Part shown: piece after piece, positions 31,378 through 63,715 of the stretch | Numbering within the stretch: position 1 is the first letter of the stretch | How the letters are laid out: every line of letters starts with the position of its first letter | DNA from: Acidimicrobiia bacterium | GTDB taxonomy: Bacteria > Actinomycetota > Acidimicrobiia > Spongiisociales > UBA5794 | Length of the DNA stretch: 64,000 bases | Reading direction: 5' to 3' | Assembly (NCBI GenBank): GCA_036985755.1 | Contig: BTQG01000002.1 | Coordinates: 2,277-66,276 of the forward strand | Position numbers and translations under genes: made by a program | The notes under the pieces: model-generated | What the model saw: the letters and a program-made list of their open reading frames with translations, nothing else | Told to the model about the DNA's origin: nothing | Databases searched by the model: none

Positions 31378-32061
31378 TCAGTCCTGCGCGAGAGAATTCC
31401 TGAGTTCCTGGACGGCCTCGATGTAGCGGTCCATCTCGGCGACGTATGCCTTGGCATCGGCTTTGAACTCCGCGCCGAGCTCTCTATGCCTGAGACCAAG
31501 GGCCTGGACCGCGAAACGGGCCCCCTTGAGGTAGTAAGGAAGACCGTCGAGCGGCATCGCCCTCTTTCCCGGCTCGGGCACTCCCGGTGTCGGTGCCTGC
31601 TGGGACGTTGGCCCGAGGCCGAGGCCCTGTACCACCTCGAGCACATCGTGTTCGGGAAGCCGGTCGGCGTAATCACGCGAGACGAAGCGGAAGGCTTCGT
31701 TGCCTTCACCGTCGACGAGGATCATCGCGGGACGGGCGAGGTTGCGCAGGTCGTCTGGGTCGGCCACACCGTACGGCTCGATCGCCAGCGACCGGTCGGG
31801 ATCGGAGAGCACGGGGAACGGGAGCTGCAGGCTTGCCACGATGGCGGCATGTTGACCGACGGAGTCCACGGAGATGGAAACGACCCGGGCACCGGCGTCG
31901 AGGAACTCCTGGTGTCGTGAAGCCAAGCTGACCAGCTGGCCGCCACAGTACGGTCACCAGTCTCCACGATTGAACACGAGCAGCATTGCCGCATCGCGGT
32001 GCTCGGAAAGCGTCCAGGGGTCTCCGGCCTGATCGGGAAGCGTGAAGTCGGGAACAGCCAT
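31378..32061 (-). CDS. Candidate selenoprotein: AhpC/TSA-2 (Prx-like) thioredoxin-fold protein with in-frame UGA (compl. 31954-31956) at the first Cys of the W-C-P-x-C motif
   Basis: Translated from the ATG (compl. 32059-32061): MAVPDFTLPDQAGDPWTLSEHRDAAMLLVFNRGDW-U-PYCGGQLVSLASRHQEFLDAGARVVSISVDS... It continues in the same frame to 31378. The track ORF 31378..31926 is the C-terminal part only. Confidence 0.55.
31922..31940 (-). promoter_or_regulatory. SECIS-like hairpin 13 nt 3' of the in-frame UGA
   Basis: mRNA: UGA-ccguacuguggcg-GCCAGCU-GGUC-AGCU(U)GGC. It has a 7-bp stem with a bulged U and a GGUC apical loop. Confidence 0.45.
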
Positions 32062-32098: not shown

Positions 32099-32638
32099 CT
32101 ACCGGACCGCGTACCGCGGTCCGTGGCCCGGCACGATCATCGTTGCCAGCTCCAGTACCCTGGCGCGATGCTGCTCCAGCAGTTCGGGGTTGGTGGCGAG
32201 CCGATCATTGCCTGCACCTTCGAACACCCATAGGTGGGTCAGTGCCGCTACTCCATCGTCGGTGTCCACCAGGGTGGTGATGTCCTGCGGGGTGTGGCCG
32301 GGTGTTTCGAGCAGACGAACGCCGGGGGACAACTGCACGCCCTCCGCGGGGCGCGAGATCCATCGGTCATGGTGGTAGATCGCCCAGTGGTCGTGGATCC
32401 GCACGTCGGGAAAGAGGGCGATGTTGATCGTGTGGTCTGGATGATGGTGCGAGATGATGACGTCGGTCACCTGCTCGACCGGCACCCCGAGCCCGGCCAG
32501 TGGGTCGAGGATGGAAGCCCGCGACGGCACCATCCCCGGGTCGACGATCGCAACCAGGTCGCCGTCGCGAATCAGGCTCACCGTGCTGGCCACGCCGTCG
32601 CCGCCGTACCCGTCGAACAGCACGTCCAGTCTCGCCAC
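32099..32638 (-). CDS. MBL-fold metallo-hydrolase
   Basis: IISHHHPDHT (HxHxDH), GHTPQD and a later HG. It lies 37 nt upstream of the Prx-like candidate selenoprotein on the same strand. Confidence 0.8.
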   Translation of the reverse strand: MARLDVLFDGYGGDGVASTVSLIRDGDLVAIVDPGMVPSRASILDPLAGLGVPVEQVTDVIISHHHPDHTINIALFPDVRIHDHWAIYHHDRWISRPAEGVQLSPGVRLLETPGHTPQDITTLVDTDDGVAALTHLWVFEGAGNDRLATNPELLEQHRARVLELATMIVPGHGPRYAVR

Positions 32639-32737
32639 CGGTCTGCTCCTTCACTTGCTCGGAACATTCTGGTGCATCGCAGGTTGGTCTGCTGTATGTC
32701 GCCGTCGAAGGCAGCAGACCGTTCTAGTGAGGTGTTC

Positions 32738-33043
32738 TTGCAGATAGACATCAGCGACGACGCAATCGATTTGGCCCGCAAGAAGGGCGGTCGCATCGCC
32801 CTCGACTTCATCACACCAGTCGGCTGAGGAAAGCCGGCTGAGGTGTCGGTCGACACCAACACAATGGGCAAGAACCTCGACCCCTACAGGCGGGTGCAGC
32901 GCGACGATGTGGAGTTCTTGGTGCCGCGCAATCTGACCCGCTGGGCAGACAACCTGACCGTGCATGCCAAAAAGACCATGCTCGGGACTCGTTTCATCGT
33001 CGAGGCCGGCCACGCCCACGCCCCCGGCTGCCAACACGGCTGA
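32738..33043 (+). CDS. Candidate small selenoprotein (about 101 aa) with IscA/HesB-like layout and in-frame UGA at 32825-32827 in a G-U-G motif
   Basis: A GAGGTG SD lies 5 nt before the TTG start: MQIDISDDAIDLARKKGGRIALDFITPVG-U-GKPAEVSVDTNTMGKNLDPYRRVQRDDVEFLVPRNLTRWADNLTVHAKKTMLGTRFIVEAGHAHAPGCQHG. Track ORFs 32234..32827 (3' end) and 32843..33043 are in the same frame, separated only by this TGA. The alternative ATG is at 32696. Confidence 0.45.
32842..32857 (+). promoter_or_regulatory. SECIS-like hairpin 14 nt 3' of the in-frame UGA
   Basis: GGUGUC-GGUC-GACACC: a perfect 6-bp stem with a GGUC loop, the same loop as the neighbouring candidate. Confidence 0.45.
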
Positions 33044-33110
33044 GCCCGGGTCAGGGTTGCGAAACGGACGAACAGGGCCTTGGATCAGATCGATCACGAG
33101 AGGGCACACC

Positions 33111-33509
33111 ATGAAAACGGTGCTGGCGGCGCTTTCGGTCATCAATGGCCTGATGGGGTTGACGCTGCTCGGCCTATTCGTGGTGACCGCTGACACCCCG
33201 CTCGTGGTGGCGGCGCTGAGCATCGGGCTCCTCATCCAGGCCGGATACACCCTGGCCTACATGGCCGGTGTGCTGGATGCTCGGCACAAGTGGTCGCTGC
33301 GGGCGCTGCTGGCAGGCCAGACCGTGGCGCTGCTGGTGGGATTCTTTGGTTTCGCGTCCTCGGCGCTGTACAACATCAATCCCGCGGGAGGCGACTACGA
33401 GTACGGGCCGCTGACCGTCGGTGCGCTCATCGCCGCGCAGGCAGCCGTGGCGTTGTGGATCTACGCCGTGGTAGACCGACCCGAGCGTGTCCGCGCACCT
33501 CACGCCTGA
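33111..33509 (+). CDS. Small hypothetical membrane protein (4 TM)
   Basis: MKTVLAALSVINGLMGLTLLGLFVV... It lies directly downstream of the small candidate selenoprotein. Confidence 0.5.
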   Translation: MKTVLAALSVINGLMGLTLLGLFVVTADTPLVVAALSIGLLIQAGYTLAYMAGVLDARHKWSLRALLAGQTVALLVGFFGFASSALYNINPAGGDYEYGPLTVGALIAAQAAVALWIYAVVDRPERVRAPHA

Positions 33510-33579
33510 CTACGAGCGAACGGTCCTGACCCGGCGGGTTCTCGGCGGGAGGCCGGCACGGCGAGGTGAGACGGTGGCT

Positions 33580-34344
33580 CTACTGCGCGGTCCAGGCTCC
33601 ATCCACCACCAGAACGTGACCCGACACCATCGCCCCGGCGGCTGATGCCAAGTAGATCACGGCAGCGGCGACATCGGATGTCGTTCCAACCCGACCGATC
33701 GGAAGGCGACTCAGGACCTGCTCCAGGTACTCGGGCTGATCCAAGCGCTCGGCGGTGCCCGGGGTGTAGATGAACGTTGGCGCCACCGCATTGACGGTCA
33801 CCCCCCGACGCGACCACTCGAGAGCCAGCACCTTGGTGAGCAGGTTCACTCCCCCCTTGCTGGCGCTGTAGACGGAGTGGTCCTCGATACCCACCACACC
33901 AGCCTGGGAGCTCATGTTGATGATCCGTCCCCGGCCCTGGGCGAGCATGAGGCGCCCGGCTGCCTGACAGGAGAAAAACAGCCCCCGCAGATTGACTGCC
34001 ATCATCTCGTCCCAATCCGATTCGGTGACGTCCTCTGCTGGTTGATTGGCTCCGAGACCGGCGTTGTTGACCACCACATCGAGCGAGCCGAAGTGCTGGT
34101 GAACCTGTTCGAACGCGACGCCGATCTCGCTTACGCTCCGCACATCGAGCTGCACGGCGATGGCGTCTCCGCCGTCAGCCCGAATCTCGCTCGCCAGCAG
34201 TTCGAGGGATTGCAGGTCGCGGGCGACAACCGCCACCACAGCTCCTGCCTCGGCCAACGCCTTGGCCAGATCCCAACCGATGCCTCTGCTGGCGCCGGTT
34301 ACCAGCGCCACCTGGCCGTCCAGGCGGAAATCCGGATACTCCAT
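33580..34344 (-). CDS. SDR family oxidoreductase (FabG-like)
   Basis: VTGASRGIG, NNAG and catalytic S...YSASK. Confidence 0.85.
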   Translation of the reverse strand: MEYPDFRLDGQVALVTGASRGIGWDLAKALAEAGAVVAVVARDLQSLELLASEIRADGGDAIAVQLDVRSVSEIGVAFEQVHQHFGSLDVVVNNAGLGANQPAEDVTESDWDEMMAVNLRGLFFSCQAAGRLMLAQGRGRIINMSSQAGVVGIEDHSVYSASKGGVNLLTKVLALEWSRRGVTVNAVAPTFIYTPGTAERLDQPEYLEQVLSRLPIGRVGTTSDVAAAVIYLASAAGAMVSGHVLVVDGAWTAQ

Positions 34345-62663: not shown

Positions 62664-62756
<93 letters not shown>

Positions 62757-62955
62757 GGGAACGTAGTACGTATCACGTAGTACGCATCACGTAGTCCGAC
62801 GTCCGCAACACGGACCACCGACTACTCATGACAGGGTACCGGCGTAAACGCGCATGCCGTGATCTGTACTCCGTAGCCCAGGGTTCGGCTCGAAATACGT
62901 GATACTTGATACGCAATACGGGCGTACGTAATACGGTCCGGCGCAGCCGGGCCCG

Positions 62956-63045
62956 CGGAGGGAGTGGGATTTGAACCCACGAAGCGGGGATACCGCTTAC
63001 ACGCTTTCCAGGCGTGCGCACTCGGCCAGACTATGCGATCCCTCC
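62956..63045 (-). tRNA. tRNA-Ser(GGA)
   Basis: Reverse complement: GGAGGGATCGCATAGTCTGGCCGAGTGCGCACGCCTGGAAAGCGTGTAAGCGGTATCCCCGCTTCGTGGGTTCAAATCCCACTCCCTCCG. Confidence 0.85.
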
Positions 63046-63081
63046 CTAGGGTGTGAAAGTGTAGAAGGAGGCTTCTGGCAA

Positions 63082-63531
63082 ATGGATGCCGTCGACGCCA
63101 TGGGAATCGCCCTCGAGCAAGCCGGCCTCGCACTCGAGCACGGCGACGTGCCGATTGGTGCCATGCTGCTTGACCGCTCGGGTGAGGTGGTTGCGGCCGA
63201 TCACAACCGGCGCCAGCAGCGAGGCGACGCGACCGCCCATGCCGAACTGCTGGTGCTCTCCGCACGATCACGCGAGATCGGTGACTGGCGACTCACCGGG
63301 CACACCCTTGTCGTCACCGTGGAGCCGTGTGCAATGTGTGCCATGGCCGCGGTATGGGCGCGAGTGGACCGCATCGTCTACGGTGCCGCCGATCCCAAGG
63401 CCGGTGCTGCGTGGAGCCTGTACAACATTCCCCAGGACGAACGGCTCAACCATCGGTGCGATCTGATCGCCGGCGTACGCGAGGACGAGGCCGCCGCGTT
63501 GCTCGAGTCCTTCTTCTCTGATCGAAGGTAG
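63082..63531 (+). CDS. tadA: tRNA-specific adenosine deaminase
   Basis: A GAAGGAGG SD, then MDAVDAMGIALEQAGLALEHGDVPIGAMLL with the HAE...PCAMCAMA zinc motif. Adjacency to tRNA-Ser genes is typical. Confidence 0.85.
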   Translation: MDAVDAMGIALEQAGLALEHGDVPIGAMLLDRSGEVVAADHNRRQQRGDATAHAELLVLSARSREIGDWRLTGHTLVVTVEPCAMCAMAAVWARVDRIVYGAADPKAGAAWSLYNIPQDERLNHRCDLIAGVREDEAAALLESFFSDRR

Positions 63532-63623
63532 CCACCGGTACACTGCTCGCCGGTGCCTGCAGCACCGACCGTATTACGTATCACGTATCCGGGTCGTAAT
63601 ACGTTGTACGTGATACGTACTTT

Positions 63624-63715
63624 GGAGGGGTGACAGAGCGGACGAATGTGACGGTCTCGAAAACCGTTGGGCCGGTTTCTCGGTCCCGTGGGTTCAAATC
63701 CCACCCCCTCCGCCA
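63624..63715 (+). tRNA. tRNA-Ser(CGA)
   Basis: GGAGGGGTGACAGAGCGGACGAATGTGACGGTCTCGAAAACCGTTGGGCCGGTTTCTCGGTCCCGTGGGTTCAAATCCCACCCCCTCCGCCA. Confidence 0.85.

What the first reader, a model, noticed from the sequence alone, without database searches (positions are those of the whole stretch)
32738..33043. Second in-frame UGA gene 0.7 kb away: small IscA/HesB-like protein with G-U-G motif and a GGUC-loop hairpin
Two track ORFs (the tail of 32234..32827 and 32843..33043) are in the same frame, separated by a single TGA at 32825-32827. A GAGGTG SD lies 5 nt upstream of a TTG start, giving a 101-aa product MQIDISDDAIDLARKKGGRIALDFITPVG-U-GKPAEVSVDT...TRFIVEAGHAHAPGCQHG. The N-terminal I-x-I-S-x-x-A...KKGG, a Gly-flanked Cys/Sec about 30 residues in, a central beta-rich part and a C-terminal Cys resemble the IscA/HesB scaffold layout. 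HesB-like proteins are one of the documented bacterial selenoprotein families. Fourteen nt after the TGA the mRNA forms GGUGUC-GGUC-GACACC (a perfect 6-bp stem), with the same GGUC apical loop as the Prx-like candidate. The downstream 66-codon piece alone would start at a GTG with no RBS.
Basis: partly seen in the sequence, partly recalled or inferred. Interest (0 to 1): 0.75.

Follow-up and report, generated by a model that had tools for sequence, protein, structure and literature searches.

The report
Unannotated small selenoprotein with IscA-like fold
The in-frame TGA at 32825 is very probably a selenocysteine codon in a real 101-residue protein that public records list only as a truncated 66-residue hypothetical, and the protein belongs to a small family shaped like the iron-sulfur carrier IscA.

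Summary
One reading frame runs from TTG 32738 to TGA 33043. It is interrupted only by TGA 32825-32827, and the hairpin GGUGUC-GGUC-GACACC starts 14 nt after that TGA.

In 108 related loci from genomes and metagenomes, mostly Acidimicrobiia, the same TGA sits at the same codon with conserved protein sequence on both sides. The hairpin's synonymous sites are frozen while neighbouring ones vary freely. The only recurrent change is a compensatory G-C to A-U swap, seen in two clades. More distant homologues are uninterrupted ~100-residue proteins with Cys exactly at the TGA position.

Sec30 lies where IscA has Cys35. A conserved Cys near the C-terminus (Cys98) is itself a TGA with its own GGUC hairpin in most close relatives. 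The window keeps a decayed copy of that second hairpin.

Two gaps remain: the Sec machinery of this genome could not be examined, and the biochemical function is inferred only.

The parts
32729..32734 (+). Shine-Dalgarno-like GAGGTG upstream of the TTG start
   Evidence: Read directly. Orthologues carry GGTG 6-8 nt before an ATG or GTG that aligns with this TTG.
32738..33043 (+). Selenoprotein gene of 101 codons: TTG start, Sec30, Cys98, TGA stop. It belongs to the CC/Se-motif superfamily and has an IscA/HesB-like fold.
   Evidence: Across 28 sequences, N-terminal codons 2-29 vary most at position 3 and least at position 2 (0.514 > 0.385 > 0.257), the pattern expected of coding sequence.
32825..32827 (+). 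In-frame TGA read as selenocysteine (residue 30, motif P-V-G-U-G-K)
   Evidence: TGA sits at this exact codon in all 108 related loci. Cys is at this position in P0121, P0122, P0125, P0127, P0129 and P0143; DNA was read only for P0172, a 94%-identical relative of P0121, where the codon is TGC (L035).
32842..32857 (+). Bacterial SECIS core: 6-bp stem GGUGUC/GACACC with apical loop GGUC (32848-32851). The loop lies 20 nt after the UGA.
   Evidence: Free energy is -9.6 kcal/mol. All cells are paired, and a G-C to A-U double change occurs in L019, L020 and L029. Third codon positions are frozen inside the hairpin and free outside it. It meets the published bSECIS constraints (PMC13188914).
33029..33031 (+). 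Codon for Cys98, the conserved C-terminal partner residue. It is a TGA (a second Sec) in most close orthologues.
33042..33059 (+). Decayed ('fossil') copy of the second SECIS hairpin, overlapping the stop codon and running into the 3' untranslated region
   Evidence: Alignment A5 shows GAGCCCGGGTCAGGGTTG here against GAGCCCCGGTCGGGGCT in L010/L011, which is three substitutions in the stem. The fold is weak (z = +0.57).

Best explanation
Positions 32738-33043 (+) encode a single 101-residue selenoprotein.

**Decoding.** During translation the UGA at 32825 is decoded as selenocysteine. The hairpin GGUGUC-GGUC-GACACC, whose loop lies 20 nt downstream, acts as a bacterial SECIS element. It would recruit SelB carrying Sec-tRNA(Sec) to the ribosome.

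**Protein.** It is a divergent actinobacterial (Acidimicrobiia) branch of the CC/Se-motif (seleno)protein superfamily and adopts the IscA/SufA/HesB (A-type carrier) fold. Sec30 sits in the loop between two beta strands, where IscA has its invariant Cys35. Cys98 sits on a flexible C-terminal tail, where IscA has its C-x-C.

**Inferred mechanism.** Sec30 is the reactive centre. The tail Cys98 (Sec in most close relatives) swings in to form a selenenylsulfide, or to share a bound ligand. That would make the protein a small redox or chalcogen/metal-relay protein.

**What is shown:** gene structure, conservation, Cys/Sec exchange, RNA constraint and fold. **What is inferred:** actual Sec insertion in this organism, and the chemistry.
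For: 1. **Conserved TGA and frame.** TGA and frame are kept at the same codon in 108 of 108 related loci, across several different gene neighbourhoods. The upstream 29 codons show the coding pattern of variability by codon position.
2. **Cys homologues.** Uninterrupted ~100-residue homologues carry G-C-G-K at the TGA position and C-x-x at the C-terminus. The window protein is 38% identical to P0121 over residues 1-98, with U30 aligned to C30 and C98 to C100.
3. **SECIS geometry and conservation.** The loop is 4 nt and starts GG, the stem is 6 bp, the spacing is 20 nt, and the energy is -9.6 kcal/mol. These fit the published bSECIS model (PMC13188914). Among the 76 distinct 60-nt segments without the 3-nt insertion, third positions of the six hairpin codons are 76/76, 74/76, 76/76, 76/76, 74/76 and 75/76 identical. 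The two 74/76 sites covary. Flanking four-fold sites are mixed.
4. **Peptide constrained by RNA.** The hexapeptide EVSVDT encoded by the hairpin is invariant in all Sec forms but variable in Cys forms (EVVADL, EAAIDT, EIALDT and others). L035, the one Cys-form locus whose DNA was read, has no such hairpin.
5. **Second Sec site as an internal control.** Wherever the C-terminal Cys codon is TGA, a stem-GGUC-stem hairpin (stem-GUU-stem in L034) follows it, the loop starting 17-21 nt downstream in the five loci measured. Its stems carry many compensatory changes.
6. **TGA is otherwise a stop.** It ends 18 of 32 confident ORFs in the window.
7. **Second Sec gene nearby.** An AhpC/TSA gene 0.7 kb away has an in-frame TGA at its redox Cys and a GGUC-loop hairpin at the same 20-nt spacing.
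8. **Family.** All 20 aligned members hit NF041239 (best E 1.4e-7). Homologues hit PF28096 CC_Se_fam.
Against: - No tRNA-Sec, selA, selB or selD is present in the 64-kb window or in the flanks of related loci. The decoding machinery of this genome is therefore unverified.
- Covariation in the first hairpin rests on a single base pair: three loci in two clades. The other five pairs never vary, so they are uninformative.
- The thermodynamic z-score of the hairpin is unremarkable.
- The window protein scores 23 bits against NF041239, below the cutoff of 40, and hits no Pfam model in the local library.
- The structure was predicted for a 38%-identical Cys homologue, because the tool would not accept the U-containing sequence.
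- No conserved operon partner points to a function.
- No experimental data exist.
Confidence: 0.87

Rival explanations
1. The gene structure is the same, but the protein's function is iron or Fe-S cluster (or other metal) binding like a true A-type carrier, rather than redox cycling. In this reading Sec30 and Cys98 from two subunits act as cluster ligands.
For: - The fold matches only IscA, SufA and related proteins.
- U30 aligns to the ligand Cys35, and the second thiol sits on a flexible C-terminal tail as in IscA.
- There are faint hits to ErpA (E 0.15) and to the NfuA N-terminal domain (E 0.007).
- Some members end in CC or CCT, which gives them three thiols or selenols.
Against: - The C-x-C signature of A-type carriers is absent from most members.
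- No Pfam Fe-S_biosyn or TIGR01911 hit was found.
- The gene is never next to isc or suf genes.
- From general knowledge, Sec is typically a redox catalytic residue, and DsrR shows that this fold can work without cluster ligands.
Confidence: 0.3
2. The TGA is a true stop. Under this reading there are two products: a 29-residue upstream peptide and a 66-residue protein started at GTG 32843 by re-initiation or coupling.
For: - Every public gene call truncates the protein this way (GMQ84563.1).
- A GAGGA overlapping the TGA lies 12 nt before the GTG.
Against: - Cys homologues are single polypeptides.
- The N-terminal 29 residues form a strand and helix that are integral to the predicted fold.
- The five codons between the TGA and the GTG are conserved as protein.
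- The GTG is fixed because it lies inside the hairpin.
- The same architecture recurs at the second TGA, where no downstream ORF exists.
Confidence: 0.04
3. The UGA is read through, but by something other than Sec. This could be near-cognate Trp or Cys insertion, or a reassigned code, as the JGI translation of P0025 with TGA=W implies.
For: P0025 is stored with W at all three of its TGAs. The Sec machinery was not seen.
Against: - TGA ends 18 of 32 ORFs in the window, including this gene itself.
- Homologues have Cys, not Trp or Gly, at the site.
- A SelB-type GGUC hairpin under RNA-level selection follows each recoded TGA.
- Sec machinery is documented in another Acidimicrobiia order, Actinomarinales (bioRxiv 10.64898/2026.04.03.716425).
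Confidence: 0.04
4. The gene is a pseudogene, or the TGA is an assembly error.
For: None beyond the presence of the stop codon.
Against: The identical TGA is found in 108 independent assemblies of many species, with purifying selection on both sides.
Confidence: 0.01

Closest known systems
CC/Se motif family (seleno)protein: NCBIfam NF041239 (Moor_selen_rel) and Pfam PF28096 (CC_Se_fam)
   Same: - Small proteins of about 90-100 residues.
- The window protein aligns to profile positions 1-83 of 91 at E 6e-5.
- All 20 aligned family members hit the model, and the Cys homologue P0143 reaches the cutoff at 40.1 bits.
- PF28096 is recorded for the Cys homologues, and weakly for the Sec form P0025.
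- The family is already known to contain both Sec and Cys forms (PMC13188914).
   Different: - The window protein scores 23 bits against a cutoff of 40.
- The review lists the known Sec members with a CxxU motif and one Sec. Here the motif is P-V-G-U-G-K with no Cys at -3, and many close relatives carry a second Sec near the C-terminus.
- The lineage is Acidimicrobiia rather than Moorella-type Firmicutes.
- I could not see the NF041239 seed alignment, so I do not know where its CC/C-Sec motif lies relative to U30 and C98.
A-type Fe-S carriers IscA / SufA / ErpA (HesB fold, Pfam PF01521)
   Same: - The N-terminal I-x-I-[ST]-x-x-A helix start is shared.
- The reactive residue sits in the loop equivalent to Cys35.
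- The second thiol sits on a low-confidence, flexible C-terminal tail.
   Different: - There is no significant sequence-model match (ErpA at only E 0.15).
- There is one C-terminal Cys instead of C-x-C.
- There is no isc or suf gene context.
- Sequence identity to solved structures is 10-19%.
HesB-like selenoprotein family (TIGR01911, motif UxGP)
   Same: A small HesB-fold protein with Sec replacing the first conserved Cys. It is a documented bacterial and archaeal selenoprotein family (PMC1794560; PMC13188914).
   Different: - There is no TIGR01911 hit, even at E <= 10.
- The motif here is U-G-K-P, not U-x-G-P.
- The lineages differ: the known family is mostly Deltaproteobacteria, Clostridia and methanogens.
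Bacterial SECIS elements of the fdhF type, recognised by SelB
   Same: - It is a stem-loop immediately downstream of the UGA inside the coding region.
- The apical loop begins GG then U.
- The loop lies 20 nt from the UGA.
- It satisfies all four constraints of the consensus model quoted in PMC13188914.
- From general knowledge, the E. coli fdhF and Moorella fdhA loops also contain GGUC.
   Different: It is a very short perfect 6-bp stem with a strict tetraloop and no bulged U. No conserved lower stem was found.

Membership tests
Bacterial selenoprotein gene (Sec-UGA plus bSECIS) | In-frame UGA with conserved coding sequence on both sides | tested here: met
   108 of 108 related loci keep the TGA and the frame. 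The codon-position variability pattern holds upstream of the TGA.
Bacterial selenoprotein gene (Sec-UGA plus bSECIS) | Homologues with Cys aligned to the UGA | tested here: met
   P0121, P0122, P0125, P0127, P0129 and P0143 have G-C-G at this position. The TGC codon is confirmed in L035.
Bacterial selenoprotein gene (Sec-UGA plus bSECIS) | [quoted passage not shown] | tested here: met
   The loop is GGUC, the stem is 6 bp, the spacing is 20 nt and the energy is -9.6 kcal/mol. The criteria come from PMC13188914.
Bacterial selenoprotein gene (Sec-UGA plus bSECIS) | RNA-level conservation or covariation of the hairpin | tested here: met
   All cells are paired, with one compensatory pair seen in two clades. 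Synonymous sites are frozen only inside the hairpin. The covariation is modest for this hairpin and rich for the sister hairpin at the second TGA.
Bacterial selenoprotein gene (Sec-UGA plus bSECIS) | selA, selB, selC (tRNA-Sec) and selD present in the same genome | not testable with these tools
Indirect support comes from a second Sec-type gene in the window and from Sec machinery reported in Actinomarinales, another Acidimicrobiia order.
Bacterial selenoprotein gene (Sec-UGA plus bSECIS) | Selenium actually incorporated (75Se labelling or mass spectrometry) | not testable with these tools
   This requires an experiment.
CC/Se motif family (NF041239 / PF28096) | HMM score at or above the curated cutoff of 40 bits | tested here: not met
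   The window protein scores 23 bits at E 6.1e-5. All 20 relatives hit below the cutoff. The Cys homologue P0143 reaches it at 40.1 bits.
CC/Se motif family (NF041239 / PF28096) | Full-length homology to the family profile | tested here: met
   The alignment covers residues 1-83 of the protein and positions 1-83 of the 91-position profile. PF28096 CC_Se_fam is recorded for P0121, P0172-P0180 and, weakly, P0025.
CC/Se motif family (NF041239 / PF28096) | The name-giving CC / C-Sec motif (listed as CxxU in PMC13188914) | tested here: not met
   Residues 27-30 are P-V-G-U and residues 95-98 are A-P-G-C, so no CxxU exists at either site. Some relatives end in CC. The position of the motif in the seed alignment could not be inspected.
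A-type carrier / HesB (PF01521; TIGR01911 for the Sec form) | Match to PF01521 or TIGR01911 | tested here: not met
   There is no hit at E <= 10.
A-type carrier / HesB (PF01521; TIGR01911 for the Sec form) | HesB/IscA three-dimensional fold | tested here: met
   [not shown]
A-type carrier / HesB (PF01521; TIGR01911 for the Sec form) | Three conserved Cys ligands: C35 plus a C-terminal C-x-C | tested here: not met
   Only U30, aligned to C35, and a single C-terminal Cys98 are present. A minority of relatives have CC.

The most novel reading that the evidence does not exclude
This is a previously unrecognised clade of selenium-dependent minimal A-type-carrier-like proteins, widespread in marine and sediment Acidimicrobiia.

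- Both reactive positions, the loop residue 30 and the tail residue 98, toggle between Cys and Sec over evolutionary time.
- The two-Sec forms would make a diselenide, or a Se-ligated Fe-S, metal or chalcogen-relay centre.
- Their C-terminal Sec would be decoded by a SECIS that straddles the stop codon and extends into the 3' untranslated region, which is an unusual placement for bacteria.
- The window would then capture a recent Sec-to-Cys reversion with a fossil SECIS.
Probability: 0.3. Interest if true: 0.6.

Novelty: new variant of a known kind. Interest (0 to 1): 0.45.

Why it matters
- **Annotation fix.** The closest public record, GMQ84563.1, is a 66-residue 'hypothetical protein', and all but one of the ~120 close relatives listed in the searches are stored as 62-73-residue fragments. 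One rule repairs the whole clade: G-TGA-GK followed by GAGGTGTCGGTCGACACC.
- **Selenium use in Acidimicrobiia.** Together with the neighbouring Sec-peroxiredoxin, it shows selenocysteine use in an Acidimicrobiia lineage common in marine and sediment metagenomes.
- **A lineage-specific SECIS rule.** The pattern stem-GGUC-stem with the loop about 17-20 nt after the UGA could be used to find the rest of the selenoproteome in this lineage.
- **A structural link.** It connects the uncharacterised CC/Se-motif family to the IscA/HesB fold, which gives the family a testable functional hypothesis.
- **Evolution of Sec sites.** Sec/Cys exchange at two sites, with one decayed SECIS, is a clean natural example of Sec gain and loss.

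Tried and rejected
- **Pfam scan.** The read-through product and three relatives gave nothing relevant. PF28096 is not in the local Pfam copy.
- **PDB sequence search.** A profile search found only a chance cytochrome hit at E = 1.
- **Single-sequence AlphaFold of P0025.** It failed, with pLDDT 33.5.
- **afdb50 fold library.** It was not available.
- **Thermodynamic significance of the hairpins.** z-scores ranged from -0.02 to -1.9. This was rejected as a criterion, and comparative evidence was used instead.
- **Motif greps for SelA, SelB and SelD, and ARAGORN/Rfam for tRNA-Sec.** Searches of the window and of 33 loci were negative.
- **Conserved operon partner.** Neighbours are housekeeping genes (Lnt, D-Tyr-tRNA deacylase, HemE, RecQ-like helicase, RNase E/G) or MBL-fold hydrolases. 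No functional link emerged.
- **Promoter and terminator scan of 32500-33700.** It found nothing.
- **Generic scan for other in-frame-TGA genes in the window.** The filter was too strict and missed even the two known cases, so it is uninformative.
- **Literature search for 'CC/Se motif'.** The family appears only as one table row in PMC13188914. The cited papers' main texts do not describe it.
- **Cluster look-up for source names.** It found only 'hypothetical protein'.

Full report
**1. Observation**

The sequence is as described. A TTG at 32738, preceded by GAGGTG (32729-34), opens a frame that runs to TGA 33041-43. The only internal stop is TGA 32825-27. The translation is LQIDISDDAIDLARKKGGRIALDFITPVG*GKPAEVSVDTNT...APGCQHG*.

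Fourteen nt after the TGA lies GGTGTC-GGTC-GACACC (32842-57). It has a perfect 6-bp stem, and its tetraloop lies 20 nt after the UGA.

There are two minor corrections. The SD hexamer ends 3 nt before the TTG. A GAGGA overlapping the TGA lies 12 nt before GTG 32843, so 'no RBS' is slightly too strong.

By itself the hairpin is not statistically remarkable. Its z-score is -1.1 to -1.9. The window holds 4 such GGTC-loop hairpins against 2.5 +/- 1.6 in shuffles.

**2. The TGA and the frame are conserved**

A protein search with the read-through product (U replaced by C) returned 23 hits, all 62-66 residues long. They correspond only to the piece after the TGA.

Fetching the DNA showed that each has an upstream 29-32-codon ORF ending in a TGA in the same frame, in three different gene neighbourhoods. 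A scan of one genome per species found 24 loci, and a metagenome scan found 80 more. With the other fetched loci this makes 108 related loci.

All 108 carry TGA at exactly this codon, within the motif G-TGA-G-K ... E-V-S-V-D-T-N. Most genome loci are Acidimicrobiales or Acidimicrobiia MAGs.

The 28 codons upstream of the TGA vary as coding sequence does. Mean pairwise differences are 0.385, 0.257 and 0.514 at codon positions 1, 2 and 3. Orthologues start with ATG or GTG where the window has TTG.

TGA is otherwise the commonest stop in the window, ending 18 of 32 confident ORFs including this gene. The code is therefore not reassigned.

**3. The hairpin is constrained as RNA**

In 109 loci (84 distinct 60-nt segments) the 16-nt hairpin is GGTGTCGGTCGACACC in 105. 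Three loci (L019, L020 and L029) carry GGTATCGGTCGATACC. They come from two clades, one of which has a 3-nt insertion upstream. This is a G-C to A-U exchange in which both changes fall on synonymous third positions. One locus has a single mismatch at the closing pair.

Among the 76 distinct segments without the insertion, third positions of the six hairpin codons (GAG GTG TCG GTC GAC ACC) are 76/76, 74/76, 76/76, 76/76, 74/76 and 75/76 identical. Adjacent four-fold sites are thoroughly mixed. For example, ACN is A16/C18/G39/T2 and GCN is T30/C31/A5/G2.

The loop, stem, spacing and energy (-9.6 kcal/mol) meet all four constraints of the consensus bacterial SECIS model quoted in PMC13188914. RNAalifold finds no conserved lower stem.

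**4. Cys homologues exist**

An exhaustive HMMER search was seeded with P0025. P0025 is the only full-length database entry, and it turned out to be a JGI translation reading TGA as W.

The search found uninterrupted ~100-residue proteins with G-C-G-K/G at the TGA position and C-x-x at the C-terminus: P0121, P0122, P0125, P0127, P0129 and P0143. Some come from Nitriliruptoraceae.

The window protein is 38% identical to P0121 over residues 1-98. U30 aligns to C30 and C98 aligns to C100.

In these Cys forms the hexapeptide encoded by the hairpin is free to vary (EVVADL, EAAIDT, EIALDT, ELAADT, EVSVST, EVSVVT). The one Cys-form locus whose DNA was read (L035, which encodes P0172, 94% identical to P0121) has TGC and no such hairpin. 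The invariance of EVSVDT in the Sec forms is therefore imposed by the RNA element.

**5. Family and fold**

NCBIfam gives one hit, NF041239 'CC/Se motif family (seleno)protein'. The window protein scores E 6e-5 and 23 bits, below the cutoff of 40, and aligns to positions 1-83 of 91.

All 20 aligned relatives hit the same model (best E 1.4e-7). The Cys homologue P0143 reaches the cutoff. The precomputed Pfam family of the Cys homologues is PF28096 CC_Se_fam.

The local Pfam copy gives nothing, including no Fe-S_biosyn. TIGR01911, the HesB-like selenoprotein model, does not hit.

AlphaFold of P0121 with a 40-row alignment gave pLDDT 88.3 and pTM 0.79. The last ~12 residues, which carry the C-terminal Cys, have low confidence.

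Both structure searches return only A-type carriers as strong matches:

| Search | Strong matches | Next hit |
|---|---|---|
| Foldseek | SufA E 3e-5, then IscA, HI1723, DsrR, AQ_1857 | no other hit below E 0.015 |

A profile alignment to E. coli IscA places U30 on Cys35. The IscA sequence was recalled from memory and verified against 1r94/1s98. The alignment score is weak, and its value lies in agreeing with the fold.

**6. The C-terminal Cys and a second Sec**

A Cys 1-4 residues from the end is nearly universal in the family, appearing as CxI, CC, CCT or CQHG.

In the window's own clade most members have TGA at that codon instead. About 31 metagenome loci, plus L001, L006, L010 and L011, read G-P-G-TGA-[RQSA]-H-[GDTA]-TGA.

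Each such TGA is followed by a stem-GGUC-stem hairpin, the loop starting 17-18 nt downstream in the four measured (L001, L006, L010, L011). The hairpin overlaps the true stop and runs into the 3' untranslated region. The stems differ by many compensatory changes (GAGCCCC/GGGGCUC, GAGUCCC/GGGACUC, GGGCCCC/GGGGCCC, GCCUCC/GGAGGC and others) while the loop stays fixed. P0025/L034 has a different hairpin with a GUU loop.

The window and L008 have TGC. The window still aligns to the hairpin region of L010/L011, but with three stem substitutions: GAGCCCGGGTCAGGGTTG at 33042-59. It no longer folds well.

This looks like a fossil SECIS of the kind described for Sec-to-Cys conversions in PMC1794560. 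The direction of change is inferred, not proven.

**7. Context and Sec trait**

The neighbours are an MBL-fold gene (32099-32638, minus strand) and an AhpC/TSA gene (31378-32061, minus strand).

The AhpC/TSA gene has an in-frame TGA (31954-56) in the motif W-U-P-Y-C. With U replaced by C it matches PF00578 across the TGA at E 2e-26. It also has a GGUC-loop hairpin whose loop lies 20 nt after the UGA.

No tRNA-Sec or sel gene is present in the window or in the locus flanks. The genome's machinery therefore remains unverified. A 2026 preprint reports selA, selB, selC and selD throughout Actinomarinales, another order of Acidimicrobiia.

Gene neighbourhoods of the orthologues share only housekeeping synteny.

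**8. Mechanism**

Shown here:

- One gene with a conserved UGA.
- A SECIS-type RNA under selection.
- Cys/Sec exchange at two positions.
- The IscA-like fold.

Inferred:

- SelB-dependent Sec insertion.
- Sec30 as the reactive centre in the beta2-beta3 loop.
- The tail Cys98 (or Sec) approaching it to form a selenenylsulfide.

I favour a redox or chalcogen-relay role at about 0.45. Both sites interchange Cys and Sec as redox pairs do, and the C-x-C of carriers is missing. An Fe/Fe-S-binding role stands at about 0.3. The remainder is unknown chemistry.

**9. Novelty**

Several pieces are already known: the superfamily, which has Sec forms listed as CxxU with one Sec; HesB-like selenoproteins; and GGUC-type bacterial SECIS elements.

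What is not documented in the sources I could reach:

- This Acidimicrobiia clade with G-U-G-K.
- Its two-Sec members, with a stop-straddling SECIS.
- The structural link of the CC/Se family to A-type carriers.
- The correct gene model. Public records hold 62-73-residue fragments.

I rate it a new variant of a known kind, of moderate interest.

Noticed in passing
window 31378-32061 (- strand); TGA 31954-31956: An AhpC/TSA-family peroxiredoxin-like gene has an in-frame TGA at the first Cys of W-U-P-Y-C. With U replaced by C it matches PF00578 across the TGA (residues 2-120, E 2e-26). A bulged hairpin GCCAGCU-GGUC-AGCU(U)GGC puts the GGUC loop 20 nt after the UGA, the same spacing as in the gene studied here.
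   Followed up: partly
L001 3967-4000; L006, L010, L011, L034, L036-L066 (C-terminal region); window 33029-33059: Most close orthologues have a second TGA at the C-terminal Cys position (G-P-G-U-R-H-G-stop). Its own stem-GGUC-stem hairpin overlaps the stop codon and the 3' untranslated region, and shows many compensatory stem changes. The window has TGC there and a decayed copy of that hairpin.
   Followed up: yes
L034 1190-1546 (protein P0025): The JGI record translates three TGAs (codons 30, 98 and 102) as Trp. This yields an artefactual 119-residue protein that runs past the real stop. It is the only 'full-length' database entry of the Sec clade.
   Followed up: yes
window 32099-32638 (- strand); L008, L010, L011; L013, L014, L017, L018, L025: A 179-residue MBL-fold (Lactamase_B) gene is adjacent in the closest orthologues. 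A 450-residue MBL plus alkyl-sulfatase-dimerisation gene is adjacent in another subclade. Whether this is a functional link or plain synteny is unknown.
   Followed up: partly
L010 (CAXMPL010000277.1) and L011 (JADFIY010000018.1): The two closest genome hits are binned as a 'Kiloniellales' MAG and an 'Acidobacteria' MAG, whereas every other member is Acidimicrobiia or Actinomycetota. This suggests mis-binning of short contigs, or horizontal transfer.
   Followed up: no
L026 6001-6369 versus L024: L026 lacks the C-terminal Cys and runs on for 122 residues. Its close relative L024 ends in ...GTCC. An apparent frameshift or assembly error lies near the 3' end.
   Followed up: no
window 62665-63715: Three tRNA-Ser genes (anticodons GCT, GGA and CGA) lie within about 1 kb. 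ARAGORN and Rfam find no tRNA-Sec anywhere in the window.
   Followed up: no
window 33113-33509 (+ strand): A 132-residue hydrophobic ORF immediately downstream has no Pfam match. It was not examined in the orthologous loci.
   Followed up: no
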